From contig JBDRSF010000015.1 in NCBI GenBank assembly GCA_043825135.1, positions 1,559 to 65,558 on the forward strand: a DNA stretch of 64,000 bases, written 5' to 3'. The notes beneath the pieces are model-generated. The model worked only from the letters and a program-made list of their open reading frames with translations, ran no database searches and had not been told where the DNA came from. The stretch is from Candidatus Magasanikiibacteriota bacterium. GTDB taxonomy: Bacteria > Patescibacteriota > Patescibacteriia > Magasanikbacterales > UBA922. The translations under genes were made by a program, and so were the position numbers. Shown piece by piece: positions 2,753-63,637 of this stretch. Numbering within the stretch: position 1 is the stretch's first letter; every line of letters starts with the position of its first letter.

Positions 2753-3049
2753 GGGTGGGTTCCCGAGCGGTCAAAGGGGACAGACTGTAAGTTAAATTGC
2801 AGCCCTTAGAGGAAACTCTAAGGTGAACTCTCTGGGATAACGGTGAAAGCTAAGTTTGCTAATTAGTAGATATGCTAATACCGTGGGAACCCTGACATAA
2901 GTCGGGGAGCGCCGTAGAGACTAGATACCAGAGTACCTAAATTTATTTTATAAATAAGGTAAAGATATAGTCCACACCAAAAGGAAACTTTTGGGTTAGT
3001 GAAATCTGTTGGCTCCGCCTTCGGAGGTTCGAATCCTCCCCCACCCACA
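2753..3049 (+). tRNA. tRNA-Tyr(GUA) interrupted by a group I intron in the anticodon loop
   Basis: Exon 1 GGGTGGGTTCCCGAGCGGTCAAAGGGGACAGACTGT is near-identical to E. coli tRNA-Tyr. Exon 2 AAATCTGTTGG-CTCCGCCTTCGGAG (long variable arm)-GTTCGAATCCTCC-CCCACCC-A. Spliced loop is CUGUAAA. Acceptor GGGTGGG/CCCACCC. Confidence 0.75.
2789..3001 (+). ncRNA. group I intron (~213 nt) within tRNA-Tyr anticodon loop
   Basis: Contains the canonical group I S element AAGATATAGTCC (2961-2972) and P7-type GTAGAGACTAGA (compare the Azoarcus tRNA-Ile intron). 5' exon ends in U. Intron ends in G (omega-G). P-like AAATTGCAGCCC near the 5' end. No ORF inside. Confidence 0.7.
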
Positions 3050-3106
3050 AAAAAACTAATCAATAAAAATGATTAGTTTTTTGTTTTATTAAAAAATAAG
3101 CATTAG

Positions 3107-3227
3107 ACCAGCGGTCAAAGGGGACAGACTGCCCCGCCTGAAAGGACGGGGTCCCGTCCAGGCAGAGCCTGGCGGGATAAATCTGTTGGCTCCGTCTTCG
3201 GAGGTTCGAATCCTCCCCTGCCCGCCA
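3107..3227 (+). pseudogene. degenerate second tRNA-Tyr-like copy with a 46-nt structured insertion in the anticodon loop and mismatched acceptor strands
   Basis: CCAGCGGTCAAAGGGGACAGACTG, a 46-nt insert of two hairpins (CCCCG..CGGGG; TCCCG-CCAGGC..GCCTGG-CGGGA), then TAAATCTGTTGGCTCCGTCTTCGGAGGTTCGAATCCTCC-CCTGCCCG-CCA. D-arm, anticodon stem, variable arm and T-arm match the upstream tRNA-Tyr. The 5' acceptor strand is not complementary to the 3' end. Confidence 0.4.
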
Positions 3228-3267
3228 ATTTGGTAAATTAGTAATTTTGTTTATTATTTTATTGGTT

Positions 3268-3297
3268 AAAAACGGCTTTGACGCCGTTTTTTTGTTT
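3268..3297 (+). terminator. rho-independent terminator
   Basis: AAAAACGGC-TTTGAC-GCCGTTTTTTTGTTTTTTT hairpin plus T-tract after the tRNA cluster. Confidence 0.6.
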
Positions 3298-3361
3298 TTT
3301 TATTATTTTTATATTATACTAAAATTATCTAATCTTTTAGTAATTCATTATATTAACCCTC

Positions 3362-3412
3362 CGAAAGATCCCTCGTCGCTCTTCGCTACGCTCGGACTCA
3401 CTCGGGATTGCG
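3362..3412. repeat. family C short palindromic element (GAAAGATCCCTCGTCG...CTCGGGATT), copy 1 of 3, immediately upstream of mutM
   Basis: The same ~55-nt element with conserved ends recurs at 45805-45861 (before metK) and 61593-61647 (before dnaK), each ending 10-14 nt before the start codon. Confidence 0.7.
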
Positions 3413-3421
3413 ATTGAAAAT

Positions 3422-4279
3422 ATGCCAGAACTTCCAGAAGTAGAGACAATCAGACAAGATTTGAAAAAGAAAATAGTGAATAAGAAAATCACTAATGTTT
3501 TGATCACAACAAAAGCCAGAACTAATCTATCCCGAAATAAATTTGCCAGTGAGTTGAAAGGTGAGACTGTAAAAGATGTTGATCGTGTTGGTAAATTGTT
3601 GATTTTTGTTTTACCTGATGAAAAGTATTTACTAATCCACTTAAAAATGACAGGTCAGTTAATCTATCAAAAAGGCAAAAAAATTATACCTGGTGGACAT
3701 CATGATTTATCTACTGTTAGTGATTTACCAAATAAATTTACTAGAATCACTTTTGAATTTTCAGATGGCGGAAGATTATTTTTTAACGACATGCGTCGGT
3801 TTGGTTATTTAAAAATTGTAGACAGTAAAGAGCTGGAGAAAGTTAAGTCAAAATTCGGCATAGAACCATTAGCAAAAGATTTTACAATAGATAATTTTAA
3901 AAAAGCTTTGCAGGGAAGAAAAACTAATATTAAAGCATTGCTCTTAAATCAGCAAATATTTGCCGGAATTGGTAATATTTATGCTGATGAGGCTTGTTTT
4001 GATGCGGGAATAAGACCCGATACACAAGTTAGTGAGTTATCAAGTGTACAGGTAAATAAGTTATACAAGTCAGTTCAAAAAATAATTAAAAAAGCGATTG
4101 AGATGCGGGGGACCACTTTTAATAATTATAGAGATAGCGATGGTAATCAAGGTAATTTTGTTCAACATCTTAAAGTTTATGGCCGAGCCGGGTTGAAATG
4201 TAAGCGGTGTTCAGGTATAATAGAGAAGACTAGGGTTGCAGGGCGGGGGACACATCATTGTTCGAAATGTCAAAAATAA
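3422..4279 (+). CDS. mutM: formamidopyrimidine-DNA glycosylase
   Basis: 285 aa; N-terminal MPELPEVE (catalytic Pro2/Glu3), H2TH region, C-terminal zinc finger CKRCSG...HHCSKC. Confidence 0.9.
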   Translation: MPELPEVETIRQDLKKKIVNKKITNVLITTKARTNLSRNKFASELKGETVKDVDRVGKLLIFVLPDEKYLLIHLKMTGQLIYQKGKKIIPGGHHDLSTVSDLPNKFTRITFEFSDGGRLFFNDMRRFGYLKIVDSKELEKVKSKFGIEPLAKDFTIDNFKKALQGRKTNIKALLLNQQIFAGIGNIYADEACFDAGIRPDTQVSELSSVQVNKLYKSVQKIIKKAIEMRGTTFNNYRDSDGNQGNFVQHLKVYGRAGLKCKRCSGIIEKTRVAGRGTHHCSKCQK

Positions 4280-8433: not shown

Positions 8434-8637
8434 GTGTCATTGCGAGGAGTGAGAATACGGAGCCTGTCCTGAACGAAGTGAGAGGAACGTGGCAATCCCA
8501 TTCATAGTATTAATAATTATGATTATATAATGTAAAAAAGATAACCCTAATTTGGAAGATTTATGAGAAAGGTTTTGAGCGTTGATGTTTGGGATTGCTT
8601 CGTCAGTCGATGCGAATCAACCTCCTCGCAATGACAC
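8434..8637. repeat. family A MITE-like element (TIR GTGTCATTGCGAGG / CCTCGCAATGACAC; internal GGGATTGCTTCG...GATGCGAATC)
   Basis: Terminal inverted repeats seen directly; related copies at 9259-9353 and 60265-60381. Confidence 0.7.
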
Positions 8638-9209: not shown

Positions 9210-9253
9210 TAAAATAAATTACCTACTGAGATATCTCAGTAGGTAATTTATTA
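9210..9253. repeat. ~44-nt perfect palindrome with 20-bp core CTACTGAGATATCTCAGTAG (copy 1 of 3); probable bidirectional terminator/operator
   Basis: AATAAATTACCTACTGAGATATCTCAGTAGGTAATTTATT; core recurs at 18108-18127 and 58298-58317. Confidence 0.7.
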
Positions 9254-9258
9254 TTGAT

Positions 9259-9353
9259 GTGTCATTGCGAGCGTAGCGAAGCAATCCCATGCTTTGACGC
9301 TTTAAAGATTGGGATTGCTTCGCCCCGATGCGAATCGGTGCTCGCAATGACAC
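9259..9353. repeat. family A MITE-like element (compact copy)
   Basis: GTGTCATTGCGAGCGTAGCGAAGCAATCCC...GGGATTGCTTCGCCCCGATGCGAATCGGTGCTCGCAATGACAC. Confidence 0.7.
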
Positions 9354-11633: not shown

Positions 11634-12017
11634 TTAAAATAGTTTTAATTTCTGTGATCTCGTCATCTTCTTTATTTCCATCTCTCGCTTAGTCGCTAGG
11701 CTTCGGTTCTTATGTTTTTCAGTATAGACTAATTTAAATGGAAGTCGAGTGCGAACATACTTGGATCCAGTTCCTTGGCGATGACTTTCCAGCCTTCGCT
11801 CCAAATTAGTAGCAATGCCAGCATAAAGCGATCCATCAGCGCATTGTATTATATAAAGGGTGTACATACGAGCAGTATTATAGCACCTATTGACAAAATC
11901 CTCAAAATATGTTATACTATTGTCATCAAATTCAGTATTGTTAAACAAACATAGTCGAGTTTGCCTTTGTCCATTCTGGATAAAAGCACTATGCTGAGAT
12001 TGATTATTCCGCTTCAT
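11634..12017 (-). CDS. GIY-YIG nuclease family protein (UPF0213/YhbQ-like); true start probably internal (MYTLYII...)
   Basis: YTLYIIQCADGSLYAGIATNLERRLESHRQG...KYVRTRLPFKLVY matches the GIY-YIG motif. Confidence 0.7.
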   Translation of the reverse strand: MKRNNQSQHSAFIQNGQRQTRLCLFNNTEFDDNSITYFEDFVNRCYNTARMYTLYIIQCADGSLYAGIATNLERRLESHRQGTGSKYVRTRLPFKLVYTEKHKNRSLATKREMEIKKMTRSQKLKLF

Positions 12018-18093: not shown

Positions 18094-18129
18094 TGTTATA
18101 ATATGATCTACTGAGATATCTCAGTAGAT
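18094..18129 (+). promoter_or_regulatory. extended -10 (TGTTATAAT) followed 4 nt later by the 24-nt palindrome ATCTACTGAGATATCTCAGTAGAT
   Basis: Second copy of the CTACTGAGATATCTCAGTAG palindrome, here overlapping the predicted transcription start of the exonuclease gene. Confidence 0.5.
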
Positions 18130-18147
18130 AATTATTAATAAAATTTT

Positions 18148-18855: not shown

Positions 18856-18900
18856 CACGATACACGACTCACGACTCACATAACACGACACAATGACAGG
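18856..18900. repeat. short tandem repeats (CACGAC/CACATAA units)
   Basis: CACGATACACGACTCACGACTCACATAACACGACACAATGAC; related 14-mer array at 59289-59362. Confidence 0.5.
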
Positions 18901-18927: not shown

Positions 18928-19096
18928 GACCTCCCCTTGCTAAGGGGAGGAACACACGAGTTCGCCGTAGCTTTAGCGAAGGTGGACGAAGTGGGGTGGG
19001 GTCGGTTCGCGTAAATGCGATATTAAATATCCACAGACGAGACCCCCTAGCCCCTGATGCGAATCGGGGTGCATTCCCCCTTGGTAAGGGGGAACT
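18928..19096. repeat. family D MITE-like element, 'empty' copy (GACCTCCCCTTGCTAAGGGGAGGAACAC ... GATGCGAATCGGGGTGCATTCCCCCTTGGTAAGGGGGAAC)
   Basis: Same terminal hairpins flank the DUF559 gene at 33266-33745; internal GCTTTAGCGA and CCCCCTAGCC blocks shared with other families. Confidence 0.65.
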
Positions 19097-19198
19097 AAAC
19101 AACCATCACCACAAAGGAGGAGCTCAAGCAGTAAAATCGCTTTTTCTGGCGATTTTTGGTATACTGAATATAGTCAAATAAGTCTTAGTTATAATAAT

Positions 19199-28213: not shown

Positions 28214-28222
28214 ATAATCAAT

Positions 28223-32917: not shown

Positions 32918-33262
32918 ATGTTTCCGCAGTATGTAAATGAAAACGTAGAAACAACACAGACGCCAGAACAAACTCACGCGATTTTTTTGAATAATCTAAA
33001 AGCTGGCAATATTGACGAGGCTGTGGAGTGTTGTTTTATGAAAGGGGATTGGGAAAAGATGAAAGAGGGTTTAAAAAAAGTGGAAGATCAGGGTGAATTG
33101 CAGATCATGATTAAAGATTTAGATACAGAAATTACAAAAGATTTGGATTTAGGCAATAAGGCAACATATACTTATTCGGTTGAGAGGAATGGAGAGTCAT
33201 TAGGTACGGGTATAGAATTTATAAAAAATTCAGCTGGGGTTTGGTTGATTGAGAGTTTGTAA
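32918..33262 (+). CDS. hypothetical protein; frame stays open upstream to an in-frame TGA at 32768, preceded by ATG 32753
   Basis: Upstream in-frame segment GITAIVVLAVFLFIIFTYSFVYDRLELVSEG encodes a TM helix; MTKKG-TGA-GITAIVV... Confidence 0.45.
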   Translation: MFPQYVNENVETTQTPEQTHAIFLNNLKAGNIDEAVECCFMKGDWEKMKEGLKKVEDQGELQIMIKDLDTEITKDLDLGNKATYTYSVERNGESLGTGIEFIKNSAGVWLIESL

Positions 33263-33265
33263 TTT

Positions 33266-33745
33266 GACCTCCCCTTACGAAGGGGAGGAACACCTGATTC
33301 GCATCAGGGGGAGGGGTTTTTCTATGGAAAAAATATTTAATCAGTCTAAGCACAAAGATCTAAGAAAGATATTGAGAGAAGATTGTACTAAAAGTGAAGC
33401 GGTGTTGTGGAAATATTTAAAAGGAAAACAAATGGGATATAGATTCCGTCGTCAACACGGTATAGGTAGATATATAGTAGATTTTTATTGTCCGAAATTA
33501 AAGCTGATTATAGAAGTGGATGGTTATACGCATATAGATCATGATCAATATATATACGATATGGAGAGAGAAAATTATTTGCGTAGTTTAGGTCTGGTGG
33601 TTAAGAGATATACAGGTGAACAGATTTTTAAACATATTAGGGAAGTCTATCTTGATTTGCAGAATATTTGTGAAGAGTTGAGTAAGGGTTAATGCAAAAA
33701 CCCCCTAGCCACTTCGTGTGCATTCCCCCTTGAAAAGGGGGAACC
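33266..33745. mobile_element. family D MITE-like element carrying a DUF559 endonuclease gene
   Basis: Left end GACCTCCCCTTACGAAGGGGAGGAACAC-CTGATTCGCATCAGGGGG; right end CCCCCTAGCC...GCATTCCCCCTTGAAAAGGGGGAACC; same ends as the cargo-less element at 18928-19096. Confidence 0.55.
33324..33692 (+). CDS. DUF559 (Vsr/MutH-like) endonuclease-domain protein
   Basis: RFRRQHGIGRYIVDFYCPKLKLIIEVDGYTH...RENYLRSLGLVVKRY matches the DUF559 signature; start at ATG after the terminal repeat. Confidence 0.7.
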   Translation: MEKIFNQSKHKDLRKILREDCTKSEAVLWKYLKGKQMGYRFRRQHGIGRYIVDFYCPKLKLIIEVDGYTHIDHDQYIYDMERENYLRSLGLVVKRYTGEQIFKHIREVYLDLQNICEELSKG

Positions 33746-33772
33746 AAACAAAGTTTTTTTTAAAAAAATTCT

Positions 33773-45376: not shown

Positions 45377-45496
45377 TGGCCAAGTTTATCTCGAAACTAC
45401 ACGAAGTGAGTGAGAGATCTTTCGGAGAGGTTGGTGAGGGGTTAAATCTATAAGTGGAGATAAATTGAGATAGATAGAGATAATATATATAGAATA

Positions 45497-45526
45497 TTTA
45501 TTGACAGATTTAAGGATTAATAGTAA
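45497..45526 (+). promoter_or_regulatory. promoter TTGACA-17-TAAAAT upstream of the metK leader
   Basis: TTATTGACAGATTTAAGGATTAATAGTAAAATACAAT. Confidence 0.4.
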
Positions 45527-45535
45527 AATACAATT

Positions 45536-45586
45536 ACGTATTTAAATACGTAATTAAATACGTAATACATTACGTAATAAGTTTTC
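45536..45586 (+). promoter_or_regulatory. array of four TACGTA palindromes spaced ~12 bp
   Basis: ATTACGTATTTAAATACGTAATTAAATACGTAATACATTACGTAATAAG directly downstream of the -10. Confidence 0.4.
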
Positions 45587-45594
45587 AAGAAAAT

Positions 45595-45740
45595 GGTGCT
45601 CGTTGTTGGTTGGTTTTATCGTGCTTGAGGTCGGTAGGCACGATTACTGTCCAACAACGTTCCCGAGCTTCGCTCTGCTCCGTCGGGCAAGCTCTTCTAT
45701 CTTCTTGAGACAACCGTTATTTTTAAGGTTGTTTTTTAGT
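45595..45740 (+). ncRNA. candidate structured leader RNA/riboswitch-like element upstream of metK, ending in a terminator-like hairpin
   Basis: Long hairpin GCTCGTTGTTGG...CCAACAACG-ttcc-CGAGC with inner stem ATCGTGC/GCACGAT; terminal CAACC-GTTATTTTTAA-GGTTGTTTTTT; GC-richer than flanks, no ORF >11 codons; no canonical S-box seen. Confidence 0.3.
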
Positions 45741-45804
45741 ATATTAATTTACTAGAAACAACTCAGTAGTCCTGCGACTACAATTACTAAATTTTAATTT
45801 TTAA

Positions 45805-45861
45805 GAAAGATCCCTCGTCGTCCAGATTTTTTGCGAAAAAAATCTTTCCTCGCTCGGGATT
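45805..45861. repeat. family C element, copy 2, immediately upstream of metK
   Basis: GAAAGATCCCTCGTCG-TCCAGATTTTTTGCGAAAAAAATCTTTCC-TCGCTCGGGATT, ends 12 nt before the ATG. Confidence 0.7.
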
Positions 45862-45872
45862 AACCAAACCAT

Positions 45873-47054
45873 ATGGAAAAACATTATTTTACCTCAGAAT
45901 CAGTTACCGAAGGACATCCGGACAAAATTTGTGATCAAATCTCTGATGGAGTTTTGGATGCAGTTTTAACAGATGATCCTGATGGGGCATGCTGTTGTGA
46001 GGTGTTTACTACGACTGGACTAGTCGTAGTTGGTGGAGAAATATCTACAAAAACTTATGTAGATATTCCAAAAATAGTTAGACAAACTTTGCAAGAAATT
46101 GGCTATACAGATGCTGATTATGGTATTGATTATAAATCTTGTGGTGTTATGGTTGCAGTTGATGAACAAAGTCAAGATATTGCCCAGGGTGAAAAAGAAG
46201 ATGCTGGTCATCCTCACCAAGCTCAAGGGGCAGGGGATCAGGGAATGATGTTTGGATTTGCTTGCAAAGAAACTCCAGAGTTGATGCCACTGCCAATTAT
46301 GTTGGCCCATGGTCTGACTCGCAAATTGGCAGAAGTTAGAAAAAATAAAACTTTAGGTTATTTACGTCCTGATGGCAAATCACAGGTTACAGTTGAATAT
46401 ATTGATGGAAAACCCGTTAGGGCTGATGCGGTTGTAATTGCTGCTCAACATAATCCAGAGATTGAATTATCACAATTGCGTGAAGATATTTTACGCGAAG
46501 TTATCAAGCCAGTTTGTGGGGAATATTTAGATGAGAATACCAAATTTTATATCAATGAAACTGGAAGATTCGTCGTTGGTGGTCCACAGGGAGACACTGG
46601 TGTGACTGGCAGGAAAATCATTGTAGATACTTATGGTGGAAAAGGCAGACATGGTGGCGGAGCATTTTCTGGCAAAGTACCAAACAAGCAAGACAGATCT
46701 GGCGCCTACATGGCACGTTATATTGCAAAAAATATTGTAGCAGCTGATTTGGCAGACGAGTGCGAAGTTCAATTGTCCTATGCCATCGGTTATCCCGAAC
46801 CAACCAGTGTTTTAGTAGATACTTTTGGAGCTGGAAAAGTTGATAGTGAAAAATTAACCAAAGCAGTTAGAGAGGTATTTGATCTCACTCCAGCTGGTAT
46901 TATTAAAACTCTTGATTTAAAGCGTCCTATTTATAAAGCTACTGCTTCTTACGGACATTTTGGTCGTGAAGTGGTTGGTTCAGATGTTGGCGAATTGTTT
47001 ACATGGGAGAAGATTGATAAGGTTGAGGATCTGAAAAGCAGATTAAGTATGTAG
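45873..47054 (+). CDS. metK: S-adenosylmethionine synthetase
   Basis: [38 protein letters not shown] motifs; terminator 47079-47107 follows. Confidence 0.93.
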
Positions 47055-52549: not shown

Positions 52550-52730
52550 CTGTCATTCCGACCGAAACCCCGATGAAATACGGGGTGGAGTGGAGGAATC
52601 CCTTTTCTTTACACTATATTTAGTATTAAATAAAATTTTCCTTGATGCATTTGTTGGTGCATTAAAAAGGGATCCCTGCGCCACCGCTAAAGCTTTAGCG
52701 ACACGCGGTCGACTACGCTCGGGATGACAA
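52550..52730. repeat. family B MITE-like element (second full copy)
   Basis: CCTGTCATTCCGACCGAAACCCCGATGAAATACGGGGTGGAGTGGAGGAATCCCTTTTC...GGGATCCCTGCGCCACCGCTAAAGCTTTAGCGACACGCGGTCGACTACGCTCGGGATGACAAC. Confidence 0.75.
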
Positions 52731-54943: not shown

Positions 54944-55088
54944 TGTCATCCCGACCGAAACGAGTGAGCCCTCGCGGGCGAGTGAGTGTAGTGGAGGGAT
55001 CCCTTTCTTAAAATAAATAATTTCTAAGAAAGGGATTCCTCCGCTTTGTTCATCCTTCGCGAGAAGGATTCACGTCGGTCGGAATGAC
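54944..55088. repeat. family B-variant MITE-like element with TIRs TGTCATCCCGACCG / CGGTCGGAATGACA
   Basis: Inverted terminal repeats seen directly; internal GAGGGATCCCTTT / AAAGGGATTCCTCC. Confidence 0.65.
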
Positions 55089-55104
55089 ACCGTGATAAAA
55101 TATT

Positions 55105-58164: not shown

Positions 58165-58295
58165 CTTTTGATTATCCCCTTGTTTATGTTTAAGTATTTA
58201 CTGACTATGTGGAGGATAACATAAAAAAAATTAAAAATCAAATTTTAGTCGTCCATATTCCCCCAGAGGTGGGCAGACATGGTATGGTCTAAGTT

Positions 58296-58317
58296 ATCTA
58301 CTGAAATATCTCAGTAG
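58296..58317. repeat. third copy of the CTACTGAGATATCTCAGTAG palindrome (one mismatch)
   Basis: ATCTACTGAAATATCTCAGTAGGT, preceded by a -10-like TGGTATGGT. Confidence 0.6.
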
Positions 58318-58345
58318 GTAAAGTGGTAGTATTTATCCACAGTTT

Positions 58346-58448: not shown

Positions 58449-58507
58449 TAATGAGGTAGGCATTTTTCATTGTGGATAACTTAGCACTTGACATGTCAGA
58501 GTGATAA
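58449..58507 (+). promoter_or_regulatory. -10 (TATAAT) plus CIRCE-like HrcA operator TTAGCACTT-N9-GAGTGATAA upstream of hrcA
   Basis: Canonical CIRCE is TTAGCACTC-N9-GAGTGCTAA; here TTAGCACTTGACATGTCAGAGTGATAA, with a further GAGTGCTAG right arm at 58524. Confidence 0.6.
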
Positions 58508-58607
58508 TGGTAGAATTATCACTGTAAATGATAGAGTGCTAGCATTGATTCAAACTGATTTATACAGATTTGAGCAAAATCTGTTTTAATCTGTCTTAAT
58601 CAATGCT

Positions 58608-59285: not shown

Positions 59286-59288
59286 CAA

Positions 59289-59362
59289 AAATCACGTAAC
59301 ACATAACATTATACACGTAACACATAACACGTAACACATAACACGTAACACGTAACAAATTT
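59289..59362. repeat. tandem array of ~14-nt units (CACGTAACACATAA) x4-5
   Basis: ATCACGTAACACATAACATTATACACGTAACACATAACACGTAACACATAACACGTAACACGTAACAAA directly upstream of the Nudix-grpE ORF. Confidence 0.65.
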
Positions 59363-59363
59363 T

Positions 59364-60264: not shown

Positions 60265-60381
60265 AGTCATTGCGAGGAATGCGTAGCAATGACGAAGCAA
60301 TCCCATCCATAAATACCACTGCTAGTGTATTAAAGACTGGGATTGCCACGTCCCGATGCGAATCGGGACTCGCAATGACAC
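60265..60381. repeat. family A MITE-like element (copy 3) upstream of hsp20
   Basis: AGTCATTGCGAGGAATGCGTAGCAATGACGAAGCAATCCC...GGGATTGCCACGTCCCGATGCGAATCGGGACTCGCAATGACAC. Confidence 0.7.
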
Positions 60382-60890: not shown

Positions 60891-60896
60891 ACGCGT

Positions 60897-60958
60897 TGTC
60901 ATCCCGAGTGGATTCACCGTATCTTTAGCGGAGGTGAAGAAGTCGAGGGATCCCTTTC
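60897..60958. repeat. family B-related short element (TGTCATCCCGAGTGG...GTCGAGGGATCCCTTTCG)
   Basis: Shares TGTCATCCCGAG and GGGATCCCTTT blocks with family B. Confidence 0.5.
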
Positions 60959-60973
60959 GTAAGTCATATATTT

Positions 60974-61531
60974 ATGAAAAATTTTGAAGAAATAAAAAAA
61001 GAAATAGAAAATATTATTATAAGTTATGATGGTAAAAATGAATTACCACATGCTATTGGCACATTGAATTGGGTTTTAAAAATCAGGCCAGATGCAGATG
61101 ATGCTTTGAAAATTTCTGCGTTTGCCCATGATATTGAAAGGTGTGTTGTTAAACATGAAAAGAGCTCAGATTATTTAATTGTTAACGAGTTTGATAAGTA
61201 CCAGATTTTAAAGCAGGAACATGCTGATAAAGGTGCGGAAATAGTAGTAAATATTTTGGGGAAATATGATGTTAGTGAAGCAGAAAAACAGCGAGTAAAA
61301 TATTTAATTAGCCATCACGAAGTTGGTGGTAATAATGATGCGGATGTTTTGTGCGATGCTGACAGCCTGTCTTATCTACTTGATAATTTTATAGGTTATC
61401 TTGATAAATATGGTACGGACAGGGCAAAAGTTAAGCTGGAGTGGATGTACGGGCGTATGTCTGAGAGAGGAAAAGAATTAGGATTGGAATTTTATAATGA
61501 AGCGTTGAGAAAATTAGGTGATAGTGGATAA
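60974..61531 (+). CDS. HD-domain phosphohydrolase-like protein
   Basis: FAHDIERC..., HADKGAEIV..., LISHHEVGGNNDADVLCDADSLSYL consistent with an HD metal-binding arrangement. Confidence 0.45.
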   Translation: MKNFEEIKKEIENIIISYDGKNELPHAIGTLNWVLKIRPDADDALKISAFAHDIERCVVKHEKSSDYLIVNEFDKYQILKQEHADKGAEIVVNILGKYDVSEAEKQRVKYLISHHEVGGNNDADVLCDADSLSYLLDNFIGYLDKYGTDRAKVKLEWMYGRMSERGKELGLEFYNEALRKLGDSG

Positions 61532-61592
61532 AATAATATAATGGCGTAACAATTAAACCAATAAACTAATTAACTAATAAACATTAACTTAA

Positions 61593-61647
61593 GAAAGATC
61601 CCTCGTCGTTCACCTGCGCTCACGCTTGGTGACCTCGCTCGGGATTA
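61593..61647. repeat. family C element, copy 3, immediately upstream of dnaK
   Basis: GAAAGATCCCTCGTCG-TTCACCTGCGCTCACGCTTGGTGACCTCG-CTCGGGATT ends 13 nt before the ATG. Confidence 0.7.
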
Positions 61648-61660
61648 ACGAAAAAATTCT

Positions 61661-63637
61661 ATGTCAAAAATATTAGGAATAGACTTGGGGACAACTAATT
61701 CATGTATGGCTATCACCGAGGGTGGTCAGCCAAAAGTGCTTGAAAATAAAGAGGGGAATAGAACTACTCCGTCTGTAATTGCAATGTCAAAGACAGGGGA
61801 ACGTCTGGTAGGTCAGCTGGCCAAGCGTCAAGCTGTTACTAATCCGACAAATACACTTCATTCAATCAAACGTCTAATCGGACGCCGTTATGAGGATGCC
61901 GTGGTACAAGAAATGAAAAAACATGCTCCATTTGAAATTTTGAAAGATGGTGATCGTATCAAAATTAAAATGCAAGACAAGGAGTATGCTTTGCCAGAAA
62001 TCTCTGCTATGGTTTTGCAGAAATTAAAAGCTGACGCGGAAGAAAAAATTGGTGAAAAAATTGAAGAAGCTGTGATCACTGTTCCAGCCTATTTTGATGA
62101 TGCTCAACGCCAAGCTACAAAAGCTGCCGGTGAAATTGCAGGTTTGAAAGTGAGTCGTATTATTAACGAGCCAACTGCAGCCGCTTTTGCTTATGGATTT
62201 GATAAAGCAAAAGATCAACAAGTGGCTGTTTATGATCTTGGTGGTGGTACTTTTGATATCTCTATTTTAGATATTTCACATGATGGTGATCAATCTACTG
62301 TAGAAGTAAAATCTACTAATGGTGATACCCATCTTGGTGGTGATGACTTTGATCAAAAGATTATTGAATGGATTTTGGATGAATTTAAGAAAGTAGAAGG
62401 AATGGATTTAAGCAAAGACCCATTATCTCTACAACGCGTTAAGGATGCCGCTGAGAAGGCCAAAATTGAGCTTTCTAGCACTCCTGAGAGTGAAATCAAT
62501 GAACCATTCATTACTTCTGGTGCCGAGGGTCCAAAGCACTTAAATATGAAATTAACTCGCGCCAAATTAGAAGAGCTTGTAGGTGAGTTAGTAGAAAAGA
62601 CAATGGTTCCAGTTAAAAAAGCTTTAGACGACGCTGGATTCAAAAAAGAAGATATTGAAGAAGTTATTTTAGTTGGTGGTATGACTCGTATGCCTTTGGT
62701 ACAAAAAAAGGTAGAAGAATTTTTTGGCAAGAAACCTCATGTGGGAGTAAATCCAGATGAAGTTGTTGCTATAGGTGCTGCTATTCAAGCTGGGCAACTT
62801 CAAGGTGATCTTGGTAAAGATATTTTGCTTTTAGATGTTACACCTTTGTCACTTGGACTTGAAACTTTAGGCGGTGTTTCTACAAAATTAATTGAACGCA
62901 ACACTACAATTCCAACAAGCAAATCACAAGTATTTTCAACTGCTGCTGACAACCAGCCCAGTGTTGAAATCCATGTGCTTCAAGGTGAGCGTGAAATGGC
63001 AACTGACAATAAATCTCTTGGTCGTTTCATGTTGGATGGTATTCCACCAGCTCCACGTGGTGTGCCACAAGTAGAAGTGACTTTTGATATTGATGCCAAT
63101 GGTATTGTAAGTGTAAAAGCCAAAGATAAGGCAACTGGCAAAGAACAATCAATTCGTATTGAAGCATCTTCAGGATTATCAGATGAGGAAATTGAAAAAA
63201 TGAAAAAAGATGGTGAAGCTCATGCTGAAGAAGATAAGAAAAAACGCGAGATGATTGATATCAAGAATACCGCGGATACTATGATTTATACTACAGAAAA
63301 AATGATGAAAGATGTGGAAGAAAAAAAGATTGAAGTTACTGATGAAGAAAAAAAGAAAGTAGAAGAAGGTGTAGAAGCCTTGAAAAAAGCTTTAAAAGGG
63401 AGTGATGACCCTTCGGCAGACTCAGGGCAAGCTATAGAGGAAATCAAAAAGGTTTCTGAAGAATTATCAACCGCAGCTCAAGCAATTGGTATGAAAATGT
63501 ATGCTACAGAGCAGAAGGAAACAAGTGACAAGAAACAAGATACAAATAATCCTGATGCAGAAGCTGGTGAAGCAAAAAAGAAAGACGAAGGTGAAGCAGT
63601 AGAGGGTGAAGTGGTTGATGAGGAAGAGAAAAAATAA
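61661..63637 (+). CDS. dnaK: molecular chaperone DnaK (Hsp70)
   Basis: [40 protein letters not shown] signatures; acidic C-terminal tail; terminator 63657-63690. Confidence 0.95.

What the first reader, a model, noticed from the sequence alone, without database searches (positions are those of the whole stretch)
3362..3412. Family C palindromic element placed exactly in front of the start codons of mutM, metK and dnaK
Three copies (3362-3412, 45805-45861, 61593-61647) share conserved ends GAAAGATCCCTCGTCG and CTCGGGATT around a variable hairpin. Each ends 10-14 nt before an ATG. That position is where a 5'-UTR structure would control ribosome access. This suggests a transposed-then-co-opted translational regulator, an RNA thermometer-like element or a protein-binding element, rather than a neutral MITE.
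Basis: seen in the sequence. Interest (0 to 1): 0.6.

Follow-up and report, generated by a model that had tools for sequence, protein, structure and literature searches.

The report
Hairpin repeat parked before start codons
A short GC-rich hairpin repeat, a local variant of the widespread repeats that accompany small GIY-YIG 'Ssn' nucleases, really does sit 11-14 bases in front of the mutM, metK and dnaK start codons of this Magasanikbacteria genome, but close relatives lack or swap it, so it looks like a junction-adapted mobile passenger rather than a dedicated translational switch.

Summary
Three copies of GAAAGATCCCTCGTCG-[variable hairpin]-CTCGGGATT lie at 3363-3409, 45805-45861 and 61593-61646. 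Each ends 12, 11 and 14 nt before the ATG of fpg/mutM, metK and dnaK.

The placement is a property of the family. In 462 kb of related Magasanikbacteria DNA, 32 of 38 copies face a start codon at this distance, against 2.3% for random non-coding positions.

The regulator reading is weak:
- The hairpin does not contain the AUG or its leader.
- The antisense strand folds at least as well.
- The downstream genes share no theme.
- Genomes with about 90% identical DnaK or 86% identical MetK have an empty site, or a different family member, at the same spot.

The element is a variant of the cross-phylum CGTC/TGTC-tagged REP repeats, the Ssn-related motifs. In related genomes it forms the right-hand arm that brackets small GIY-YIG nuclease genes.

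It carries its own A-rich tail. It stops at the edge of the 12-nt G/C-free zone that precedes every gene in this Shine-Dalgarno-less genome.

Verdict: a new variant of a known repeat kind, of moderate interest.

The parts
3363..3409 (+). Family C copy 1 (GAAAGATCCCTCGTCG...CTCGGGATT). A 12-nt tail GCGATTGAAAAT follows, then the ATG of fpg/mutM at 3422.
   Evidence: This is the weakest fold of the three (z +0.5).
45805..45861 (+). Family C copy 2. The inner hairpin is AGATTTTTT-GCGA-AAAAAATCT. The 11-nt tail AACCAAACCAT follows, then the ATG of metK at 45873.
   Evidence: The same element sits at the same site in L155/L156. It is absent in L157, L158 and L159.
61593..61646 (+). Family C copy 3. 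The inner hairpin is TCACC-TGCGCTCACGCT-TGGTGA. The 14-nt tail AACGAAAAAATTCT follows, then the ATG of dnaK at 61661.
   Evidence: At the orthologous site, L152 is empty, L151 has the same ends with a different interior, and L153/L154 carry another family member.
45388..45423 (+). Left-arm element ATCTCGAAACTACACGAAGTGAGTGAGAGATCTTTC, 11 nt after the stop of the permease gene. It is identical to the left arm that brackets the GIY-YIG gene in L138. It is the partner type of family C, here 380 nt upstream of copy 2.
60897..60958 (+). Reverse-oriented sibling element (TGTCATCCCGAG...GAGGGATCCCTTTC), 6 nt after the hsp20 stop. Together with copy 3 it brackets the extra DUF4202/HD gene 60974-61531, which relatives lack or replace.
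40909..41083 (.). Inverted doublet of sibling elements: TGTCATTCC...GGAATCCCTTTC at 40909-40970, and AAAAGGGATCCC...CTCGGGATGACA at 41019-41083. It fills the spacer between two genes. The right arm ends 12 nt before the ATG at 41096.
52551..52729 (.). Inverted doublet of sibling elements (52551-52607 and 52665-52729) after the CCA-adding enzyme gene. It is shared with L154 and absent in L152 and L153.
54944..55089 (.). Inverted doublet (54944-55007 and 55028-55089) between the two ftsX-like genes. The spacer is 170 nt here but only 2-6 nt in L152/L153. The 9-nt left flank and the 15-nt leader CCGTGATAAAATATT therefore came with the insert.
8435..8636 (.). Doublet of the ATTGC/GCAAT sibling family (TGTCATTGCGAG...GCAATCCCA and TGGGATTGC...GCAATGACA). 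Further doublets lie at 9260-9352 and 60265-60380. This family shows no fixed distance to start codons.
3278..3306 (+). Promoter-like site TTGACG-17-TATTAT upstream of copy 1. It places the element in the mutM 5' UTR (inferred).
45501..45529 (+). Promoter-like site TTGACA-17-TAAAAT (11 of 12 matches) upstream of the conserved metK leader. Copy 2 lies downstream of the leader's terminator-like hairpin (inferred 5' UTR).
61505..61534 (+). Promoter-like site TTGAGA-18-TAAAAT upstream of copy 3 (inferred dnaK 5' UTR).

Best explanation
Family C is a lineage-specific subfamily of the cross-phylum hairpin repeats known as CGTC/TGTC-tagged REPs, or Ssn-related motifs (SRM).

In Magasanikbacteria these repeats turn over quickly. 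They occur in three forms:
- inverted doublets;
- arms that bracket small single-domain GIY-YIG (Ssn-like) nuclease genes or other variable cargo;
- solo arms.

Family C is the right-hand arm. Its tag end (GGGAT-TAAC/TGAC, the complement of the usual TGTC-AT tag) faces the downstream gene. It is followed by a short A-rich tail that comes with the repeat.

These genomes have intergenic spacers of only a few to a few dozen bases and no Shine-Dalgarno sequences. Every gene needs about 12 G/C-free bases in front of its ATG. An insert survives only if it lands between genes and leaves, or supplies, that landing zone. The hairpin therefore ends at about -12 in almost every copy.

The element is then transcribed as a passenger in the 5' UTR. 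Its primary biology is inferred to be at the DNA level: a single-stranded hairpin recognised by an Ssn-type nuclease, and portable homology at the edges of variable segments. It is not a switch on ribosome access.

Shown: the family relationship by sequence, the positional statistics, insertion/absence polymorphism, bracketing of GIY-YIG genes, the SD-less G/C-free zone, and an AUG outside the helix.

Inferred: the mechanism of spread, nuclease recognition, transcription, and neutrality.
For: 1. Superfamily. The core AAGATCCCTCG...CTCGGGAT occurs in more than 120 loci from Acidobacteriota, Gemmatimonadota, Firmicutes, Bacteroidota, Proteobacteria and CPR. 107 of 126 matches continue with GAC, giving the ...GGGATGACA tag. 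The window itself holds at least 17 sibling arms with TGTCAT tags.

2. Published kinds. CGTC-tagged REPs, including dRS3 and RPE-4/6, are described in PMC3733652. Ssn nucleases with flanking SRM hairpins are described in PMC11893778.

3. Independent test. GIY-YIG homologues fetched by protein are bracketed by a left arm and a family-C-type right arm in L160, L164 and L165. Other spacers in those loci have none. L071, L138, L146 and the acidobacterial L015 show the same bracketing.

4. Turnover.
- dnaK site: empty in L152, family C with a different interior in L151, another family member in L153/L154. L152 and L153 DnaK are 95% identical.
- metK site: filled in the window and L155/156, empty in L157-L159.
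- ftsX junction: 2-6 nt in relatives against a 170-nt doublet here.

5. Tail is element-borne. RAC follows GGGATT in most of the 43 copies. Leaders such as AAYTKGACACT-ATG and GACA-GTGAAAAAAT-ATG recur before unrelated genes.

6. Landing zone. Only 5 of 46 genes have an SD-like 4-mer. G and C are nearly absent from -12 to -1.

7. Census. 32 of 38 copies are start-facing against 2.3% for random positions. Generic copies in other phyla show no such proximity: 6 of 127 against 3 of 127 in the control.

8. Nothing RNA-specific. There is no Rfam hit. The antisense fold is at least as stable.
Against: - A purely passive model does not explain the strong orientation bias (32 start-facing against 3 stop-facing). 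It also does not explain why left-arm types sit after stops and right-arm types before starts even when the two arms are far apart, as at metK and dnaK.
- Orthologous copies in different contigs keep the hairpin through changes on both sides of the inner stem: guaB L127/L150 and truB L132/L137. GAPDH L125/L148 keeps an identical element. This could reflect selection on structure.
- No Ssn-like gene is present in the window. Its only GIY-YIG gene (11634-12017) is not flanked by repeats.
- The published SRM search pattern finds nothing in the window.
- Family C lacks the GTC that the Neisseria enzyme needs for cutting.
- Transposition or homing was not observed, and target duplications could not be defined.
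- Many metagenome copies come from a few samples, and some are orthologous, so the counts are not fully independent.
- The mutM site could not be compared with relatives.
Confidence: 0.55

Rival explanations
1. Exapted 5'-UTR module. The hairpin is kept because, as RNA, it helps the downstream gene. It could insulate the 12-nt A/U-rich landing zone from upstream structure. It could dock on the 30S platform where an SD helix would sit. Or it could protect the mRNA 5' region. In short, a portable translation-initiation cassette for an SD-less organism.
For: - Spacing is sharp at 11-12 nt, at the edge of the G/C-free zone.
- Orientation is almost always sense to the gene.
- All 44 copies share one architecture despite four or more unrelated inner hairpins; mean z is -2.6.
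- Orthologous copies show changes on both sides of the stem.
- At metK it lies between a terminator-like hairpin and the AUG, where an insulator would make sense.
- Sense-strand internal loops are pyrimidine-rich, and the sense fold is the weaker one.
Against: - Most genes in the window do without it.
- dnaK and metK in close relatives work from 36-nt and 17-nt leaders with no element.
- There is no functional theme among downstream genes.
- Sibling arms hug stop codons just as tightly.
- The relatives of the repeat are recognised as DNA, not RNA.
- No expression data exist.
Confidence: 0.15
2. Domesticated DNA-level signal. The arms are target sites of an Ssn-type ssDNA nuclease. They are kept at gene boundaries to control recombination of incoming or replicating single-stranded DNA, as NTS does in Neisseria. 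They would define exchangeable gene cassettes.
For: - Arms bracket variable cargo between conserved genes. A different gene lies between hsp20 and dnaK in each of four genomes, and none in L152. Variable genes also lie between the permease gene and metK.
- Arms bracket GIY-YIG genes.
- The C just after the palindrome, critical for Ssn binding, is conserved as GGGAT-C.
- The Neisseria precedent is in PMC11893778.
Against: - Family C lacks the GTC tag needed for cutting by the characterised enzyme.
- No Ssn gene lies in this window.
- A benefit to the host is untested even in most SRM-bearing species.
- This model does not by itself predict an 11-12 nt spacing to the ATG.
Confidence: 0.2
3. RNA thermometer or other occluding riboregulator. 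The hairpin would melt or refold to expose the ribosome binding site of heat-shock and stress genes.
For: One of the three genes is dnaK. The element is a hairpin in a 5' UTR.
Against: - Neither the AUG nor the leader is paired in the predicted folds.
- There is no SD to occlude.
- The same element precedes gapA, guaB, truB, serS, rpmE, ruvA and others.
- dnaK in L152 has no element.
- There is no Rfam match to ROSE, fourU or any other family.
Confidence: 0.03
4. Mobile promoter. The repeat unit carries an outward promoter that drives the downstream gene.
For: - In L154 an 85-nt block of AT-rich upstream sequence, hairpin and leader is duplicated before hsp20 and dnaK.
- Many metagenome copies share a conserved 30-nt upstream extension, TGTAAACCAAAATAYTTACTCTYC.
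Against: - That extension is the inner half of a long palindrome with the partner arm.
- No sigma-70-like site lies within or just upstream of the three window copies. The promoter-like sites are 55-275 nt further up.
- At metK a promoter there would bypass the conserved leader.
Confidence: 0.05

Closest known systems
Ssn-related motifs (SRM/NTS) with Ssn GIY-YIG ssDNA nucleases (Chenal et al. 2025, PMC11893778)
   Same: - An oriented hairpin repeat with an unpaired tag next to an AT-starting stem and a conserved C right after the palindrome.
- Hundreds of intergenic copies that surround genes.
- In related Magasanikbacteria genomes, arms of exactly this type flank single-domain GIY-YIG genes of about 105 aa on both sides.
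   Different: - The published degenerate SRM pattern gives 0 matches in the window.
- Family C has GTTA or GTCAA where SRM has HGTCWY.
- It has a 5-6 bp outer stem, an internal loop and a variable inner hairpin, instead of one short stem-loop.
- It sits 11-12 nt before start codons, which the paper does not describe.
- CPR are not treated in that paper.
- Nuclease recognition is untested here.
CGTC-tagged REP superfamily, including Neisseria dRS3 and Rickettsia RPE-4/RPE-6 (Di Nocera, De Gregorio, Rocco 2013, PMC3733652)
   Same: - A terminal CGTC/TGTC tag (in the window's sibling families).
- A stem that begins with A-T then T-A.
- A short tail after the palindrome.
- Inverted dimers predominate.
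- Intergenic, close to ORF ends, and found in many phyla.
   Different: - Those REPs have 8-9 bp stems and 4-5 nt loops.
- They lie mainly just downstream of ORFs, at variable distance from the next ORF.
- Family C is larger and modular, has an altered tag, and faces start codons in 84% of copies.
REP/BIME and REPIN doublets with RAYT transposases (PMC3116915, PMC3333891; titles and abstracts)
   Same: Short GC-rich extragenic palindromes, inverted doublets, and a small associated nuclease gene flanked by the repeats.
   Different: - RAYT-type REPs carry a GTAG tag and a Y1 (HUH) transposase.
- No such gene was found among 47 window proteins scanned.
- The associated gene here is GIY-YIG.
Correia/NEMIS elements of Neisseria
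   Same: Miniature inverted-repeat elements that often land next to genes. They are co-transcribed in 5' UTRs and can alter mRNA processing or supply promoters.
   Different: Correia elements are 100-150 bp with defined TIRs and a TA duplication. They have no fixed distance to the start codon and are unrelated in sequence.

Membership tests
Ssn-related motif (SRM), PMC11893778 | Matches the published degenerate search sequence HGTCWYN(0-2)YYVSBRHN(0-5)WNVSBRGN(0-2)RNCYNB | tested here: not met
   0 matches on either strand of the window. The Neisseria NTS control matches.
Ssn-related motif (SRM), PMC11893778 | Hairpin-forming inverted repeat of 20-50 nt, given an orientation by non-palindromic flanks | tested here: met
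   All 44 copies fold with the outer stem GAUCCC/GGGAUU. They have asymmetric ends, GAAAG against TAAC. Some copies exceed 50 nt.
Ssn-related motif (SRM), PMC11893778 | Conserved C immediately 3' of the palindrome on the tag strand (critical for binding), and GTC immediately 5' of it (critical for cutting) | tested here: inconclusive
   The C is invariant (GGGAT-C on the - strand). GTC is replaced by TTA, TCA or similar in family C. It is present as TGTC in sibling families.
Ssn-related motif (SRM), PMC11893778 | Repeats flank single-domain GIY-YIG (cd10448) genes on both sides | tested here: met
   Met in related genomes: L071, L138, L146, L160, L164 and L165. Not met in the window, whose GIY-YIG gene 11634-12017 is unflanked. 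The cd10448 assignment was not testable; only Pfam GIY-YIG was confirmed.
Ssn-related motif (SRM), PMC11893778 | Bound and cut as single-stranded DNA by the cognate Ssn nuclease, on one strand only, and not as RNA | not testable with these tools
   Needs purified protein and oligonucleotides.
CGTC-tagged REP superfamily, PMC3733652 | Unpaired terminal CGTC (or TGTC/CCTC) tag | tested here: not met
   On the tag strand, family C ends in GTTA-AT, GTCA-AT or GTTC-AT. At least 14 sibling arms in the window do carry TGTC-AT.
CGTC-tagged REP superfamily, PMC3733652 | Stem starts with complementary A-T and T-A pairs | tested here: met
   ATCCC...GGGAT in every copy.
CGTC-tagged REP superfamily, PMC3733652 | Stem of 8-9 bp and loop of 4-5 nt | tested here: not met
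   A 5-6 bp outer stem, an internal loop with two C-G pairs, then an inner hairpin of variable sequence and length. Total length is 30-90 nt.
CGTC-tagged REP superfamily, PMC3733652 | Mostly inverted dimers, located just downstream of ORFs | tested here: inconclusive
   Many metagenome copies have an inverted partner 60-80 nt upstream. The window copies are solo or far from the partner. 32 of 38 face start codons, not ORF 3' ends.
RNA thermometer (ROSE, fourU and similar) | Ribosome binding site or AUG paired within the hairpin | tested here: not met
   The tail and AUG are unpaired in the predicted folds. The genome has no SD. There is no Rfam hit.
MITE | Terminal inverted repeats, target-site duplication, and insertion polymorphism between relatives | tested here: inconclusive
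   Polymorphism is clear. Doublets give inverted ends. No consistent duplication could be read from the AT-rich flanks: TTAAC flanks copy 3 but is absent from the empty site in L152.
REPIN/RAYT system | GTAG tag and an associated Y1 (HUH) transposase gene | tested here: not met
   There is no GTAG tag. No Y1 transposase appears among 47 window proteins scanned against Pfam.

The most novel reading that the evidence does not exclude
Family C is an Ssn-motif-derived hairpin that has been exapted as a portable translation-initiation cassette for Shine-Dalgarno-less CPR bacteria. The helix would end at -12 and dock where the SD/anti-SD helix normally sits on the 30S platform, or insulate the landing zone. 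The attached A-rich tail would supply the landing zone itself. Genes or cassettes that move between genomes would then arrive with a ready-made start region.
Probability: 0.12. Interest if true: 0.7.

Novelty: new variant of a known kind. Interest (0 to 1): 0.4.

Why it matters
The finding extends the recently characterised Ssn/SRM repeat system, and the older CGTC-REP class, to Candidate Phyla Radiation genomes. The published search pattern misses these copies.

It also shows a subfamily with a behaviour not reported for REPs. Copies are oriented and sit at a fixed distance in front of start codons, at the edge of the G/C-free ribosome landing zone of an SD-less organism.

If the spacing reflects only survivorship, it measures how much leader such ribosomes need, about 11-12 nt. 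If it reflects exaptation, it would be a natural portable 5'-UTR module.

For annotation, the repeats explain spurious N- and C-terminal extensions. They also mark hot spots of gene turnover, such as the hsp20-dnaK and permease-metK intervals.

Tried and rejected
- Rfam at gathering thresholds on the whole window, and at E up to 10 on two regions: no family covers the element.
- Literature search with sequence strings returned only primers. A keyword search on CPR palindromes found nothing relevant.
- SD mimic: GGGA lies 13 nt or more from the AUG, and the genome is SD-less. Rejected.
- Sense-RNA-specific structure: the antisense strand folds as well or better. RNAalifold on the MAFFT alignment found only the invariant outer stem, because the interiors are out of register.
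- Chance matches: the 19-base pattern would give about 130 random hits in 596 Gb by my estimate. But 107 of 126 hits continue with GAC, so they are real relatives.
- Start-codon proximity as a general superfamily trait: rejected, 6 of 127 against 3 of 127 in the control.
- The window's own GIY-YIG gene as partner: it is not flanked by repeats.
- The published SRM pattern: 0 hits.
- Phage origin: 0 hits in viral contigs.
- Synteny among the pattern-derived loci: none.
- The mutM orthologous site: not present in any fetched locus, and look-ups were exhausted.
- Target-site duplication: not definable.
- Separating transcription-linked from replication-linked orientation: not possible. 56 of 59 window genes are on one strand, and the only contig with copies on both strands (L138) has a divergent gene switch that could be an origin.

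Full report
**Observation**

The 16-mer GAAAGATCCCTCGTCG occurs exactly three times in the window, at 3363, 45805 and 61593, all on the + strand. Shuffles predict 0.11 occurrences, and no further match appears with up to 3 mismatches. The two-ended pattern GATCCCTCG...CTCGGGATT finds the same three sites, against none expected.

The elements span 3363-3409, 45805-45861 and 61593-61646. ATGs of long ORFs follow at 3422, 45873 and 61661, which is 12, 11 and 14 nt after GGGATT. The ORFs are:
- Fpg/MutM (TIGR00577 at 266.7 bits);
- MetK;
- DnaK.

The window comes from a Candidatus Magasanikbacteria MAG: P0001 and P0121 are 100% identical to the window proteins and lie on a 67-kb contig.

**Anatomy**

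All 44 distinct family copies collected here fold into one architecture:
- a 6-bp outer stem GAUCCC/GGGAUU;
- an internal loop with two C-G pairs (UCGUCG opposite CUCGCUC);
- an inner hairpin.

The sequence of the inner hairpin falls into at least four unrelated types: CACC..GGUG, AGAUUUUUU..AAAAAAUCU, GCCCUU..AAGGGC and short forms. Mean z against shuffles is -2.6, and 31 of 44 copies have z below -2. However, the antisense strand is on average more stable, at -18.0 against -16.0 kcal/mol.

The three window copies score z +0.5, -1.2 and -2.65. In no predicted fold is the AUG or the tail paired with the element. Rfam has nothing for it.

**Setting in the window**

Family C is not alone. The window holds at least 17 other GC-rich arms with the same logic: AAAG-(G)GAT(C/T)(C/G)C ... 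G(G/C)(A/G)AT-GACA, or TGTCAT...ATCCCTTTC when read from the other strand.

Most form inverted doublets that fill whole intergenic spacers. The left arm begins 5-12 nt after a stop codon, and the right arm ends about 12-15 nt before the next ATG.

The genome has no Shine-Dalgarno signal. Only 5 of 46 ATG-start genes have an SD-like 4-mer. Positions -12 to -1 are almost free of G and C, and T occupies -1 in 85% of genes. The family C hairpin therefore stops at the upstream edge of this zone.

Consensus promoter matches lie 55-275 nt upstream of the three copies, which would place them in 5' UTRs. This is an inference, not a measurement.

**Census elsewhere**

107 of 126 matches continue with GAC, giving ...GGGATGACA. 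They are therefore relatives and not chance hits. In those genomes there is no proximity to start codons: 6 of 127 against 3 of 127 in the reverse-direction control.

A metagenome scan with the family-specific pattern gave 30 loci, all 33-44% GC. An ATG of a real ORF follows GGGATT at 8-15 nt in most copies, with a mode of 11-12 nt. The downstream genes are unrelated: gatC, gapA, guaB, truB, ruvA, serS, rpmE, gdh, rocD, a NUDIX gene, transporters and others.

Over 462 kb of Magasanikbacteria-type DNA, family C arms (ATCCC stem, T/G-RAY tail) split as 32 start-facing, 3 stop-facing and 3 other. Only 2.3% of random non-coding positions and orientations have such an ATG 8-19 nt downstream, which gives a binomial P of about 1e-46. 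That figure is overstated, because some copies are orthologous or come from the same samples.

The ATCCC and ATTCC arms with GACA tags behave the same way when they face a start. The ATTGC arms do not. No copy was found in viral contigs.

**Orthologous sites**

Syntenic loci from four relatives were fetched through DnaK, which is 91-92% identical to the window protein. The state of the dnaK site differs between them:

| Locus | State upstream of dnaK |
|---|---|
| L152 | 36-nt spacer, no element (..CTAATAAACA ATTCTATG) |
| Window | Family C |
| L151 | Family C at the same point, same ends, different interior |
| L153, L154 | A different member (GAAAGGGATTCCTCGGCTGCGCTCGGAATGACA) ending 10-11 nt before the ATG |

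L152 and L153 are each other's closest relatives, at 95% DnaK identity. Gain, loss or replacement therefore happened recently.

In L154 the same 85-nt block of AT-rich stretch, hairpin and leader also precedes hsp20.

Upstream of metK, the window and L155/L156 (92% MetK identity) carry family C 11 nt before the ATG. L157 (91%), L158 and L159 (86%) do not. In L158 and L159 the ATG follows a conserved leader's terminator-like hairpin after 17 nt.

Between the two ftsX-like genes the spacer is 2-6 nt in L152/L153 but 170 nt in the window. All 170 nt are a doublet with its own 9-nt left flank and 15-nt leader. The repeat unit therefore brings its own leader.

In line with this, RAC follows GGGATT in most of the 43 copies, although C is rare at those positions genome-wide. 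Leaders such as AAYTKGACACT-ATG and GACA-GTGAAAAAAT-ATG recur before unrelated genes.

The arms also mark the edges of variable segments:
- A different gene sits between hsp20 and dnaK in each of four genomes, and none in L152.
- Different genes sit between the permease gene and metK.

**Link to a nuclease and to the literature**

Small GIY-YIG genes turned up next to the repeats. In L138 and L071 the gene lies between a left arm and a family-C-type right arm. The acidobacterial locus L015 has the same layout.

As an independent test, homologues were fetched by protein rather than by repeat. Three further contexts, L160, L164 and L165, were all bracketed in the same way. For example, L160 reads: stop - ATCTCGAAATTACACGAAGTGAATGAGAGATCTTTC - 30 nt - ATG...stop - 23 nt - GAAAGATCCCTCAATCACTTCGTGTATTTTCGGGATTAAC - TAATATT - ATG of the next gene. 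Other spacers in those loci carry no such arms.

Two papers describe this kind of system.
- Di Nocera et al. 2013 define a CGTC/TGTC-tagged REP superfamily. Its features are AT-starting stems, short tails and inverted dimers. It includes Neisseria dRS3 and Rickettsia RPE-4/6, lies mostly just downstream of ORFs, and had no known transposase.
- Chenal et al. 2025 show that single-domain GIY-YIG proteins (Ssn, cd10448) are site-specific ssDNA nucleases. Their genes are flanked by the hairpin repeats (NTS/SRM). They bind one strand as ssDNA and cut a few nt 5' of the tag. They do not act on RNA or dsDNA, and they modulate transformation in Neisseria.

Their degenerate SRM pattern finds nothing in the window. 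Family C lacks the GTC tag but keeps the C after the palindrome. The window's own GIY-YIG gene (11634-12017) is not flanked. No transposase was found among 47 window proteins scanned.

**Best explanation**

Family C is the right-hand arm of a Magasanikbacteria variant of the SRM/CGTC-REP repeats. It spreads or is exchanged at the DNA level, and it turns over between close relatives. It persists only at gene junctions, because these genomes have almost no other non-coding space.

The arm carries an A-rich tail. Every gene needs about 12 unstructured G/C-free bases before its ATG. Together these put the hairpin at about -12 nearly every time. As RNA it is a passenger in the 5' UTR.

- Shown: sequence kinship, positional statistics, polymorphism, bracketing of GIY-YIG genes, an element-borne tail, the SD-less landing zone, and an AUG outside the helix.
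- Inferred: how it moves, nuclease recognition, transcription, and lack of effect on expression.

I put about 0.55 on this account.

**What it does not explain, and the rivals**

Three observations sit poorly with a purely passive model:
- The 32:3 orientation bias.
- The division of labour between left-arm types after stops and right-arm types before starts, even when the arms are hundreds of bases apart.
- Changes on both sides of the inner stem between orthologous copies (guaB, truB).

These leave room for selection on the transcript, as an insulator or platform-docking helix for SD-less initiation (0.15). They also leave room for a domesticated DNA-level role at cassette boundaries, as proposed for NTS (0.2).

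An RNA thermometer is contradicted by the anatomy (0.03). A mobile promoter has little support (0.05).

Transcription-linked and replication-linked orientation could not be separated, because 56 of 59 window genes share one strand.

**Novelty and verdict**

The kind is known. The variant is new in four respects: its phylum, its altered tag, its modular interior, and above all its oriented, fixed-distance placement before start codons.

The reading as a co-opted translational regulator is not supported by present evidence, but it is not excluded. Interest is moderate.

Noticed in passing
window 45537-45745 (also L155, L157, L158, L159): A long metK leader is conserved in five genomes. TACGTAAT-type repeats sit right after a strong promoter-like site. 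A structured region follows, with a 9-bp helix CGUUGUUGG/CCAACAACG and an outer helix CUCAAGAA/UUCUUGAG. In L159 the outer helix changes on both sides, to UCC..GGA. A terminator-like hairpin comes next. No Rfam family matches at E up to 10, including all SAM riboswitch classes. This is a candidate new metK/SAM-type riboswitch in CPR.
   Followed up: partly
window 2753-3051 and 3104-3228: A group I intron (RF00028, 70.4 bits, 2779-2994) lies inside a tRNA-like gene that ARAGORN does not call. A second tRNA-like gene follows 177 nt downstream. It carries a different GC-rich insert, and its 3' part is 90% identical to the first. The ORF just upstream (2138-2752, 204 aa) has no Pfam hit.
   Followed up: partly
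window 59286-59363 and 18856-18892; L151 1239-1312; L154 7487-7553: Arrays of CACGTAA/CACATAA heptamers fill the hrcA-grpE spacer. The same spacer is only 8 nt (CAAATTTT) in L152 and L153. This is another kind of intergenic expansion.
   Followed up: partly
window 33265-33331 and 33699-33751; also 18928-19102 and 39767-39985: A different family of GC-rich palindromes (GACCTCCCCTT..AAGGGGAGGAAC, with CCTGATGCGAATCAGGG-type modules) flanks a DUF559 endonuclease gene (33249-33692). The annotated N-terminus of that gene reads through the repeat. The same inner modules occur inside the ATTGC arms.
   Followed up: no
window 60891-61660 compared with L151-L154: The interval between hsp20 and dnaK holds a different gene in each genome: DUF4202/HD here, a 109-aa ORF, a 319-aa ORF, and an acetyltransferase. 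L152 has none. The permease-metK interval is likewise variable.
   Followed up: partly
window, all gene starts: There is no Shine-Dalgarno usage (5 of 46 genes). G and C are nearly excluded from -12 to -1. A is enriched at -5, -6, -10 and -11. T sits at -1 in 85% of genes. This is a Kozak-like context for this CPR lineage.
   Followed up: partly
window 9215-9246, 18100-18131, 58290-58321: Three copies of a perfect AT-rich palindrome TTACCTACTGAGATATCTCAGTAGGTAA lie in intergenic regions. A similar copy is present in L152 upstream of hrcA.
   Followed up: no
window 11634-12017 (-): A GIY-YIG protein whose domain occupies the C-terminal 75 residues. Unlike the GIY-YIG genes of related contigs, it is not flanked by hairpin repeats. 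By eye it looks closer to the YhbQ/UPF0213 type.
   Followed up: partly
window 12346-33262: A stretch rich in mobile or defence-type genes: two Bro-N proteins, RhuM/Fic, AntA, a DNA methylase with a type III Res helicase, a SocA/Panacea antitoxin, PRiA4_ORF3, and a PIF1 helicase. It also has exact 41-nt direct repeats at 28219 and 29638.
   Followed up: no
window 58470-58520: A CIRCE-like inverted repeat, TTAGCACTTGACATGTCAGAGTGATAA, overlaps a promoter-like TTGACA upstream of hrcA. It is conserved in L152-L154.
   Followed up: no
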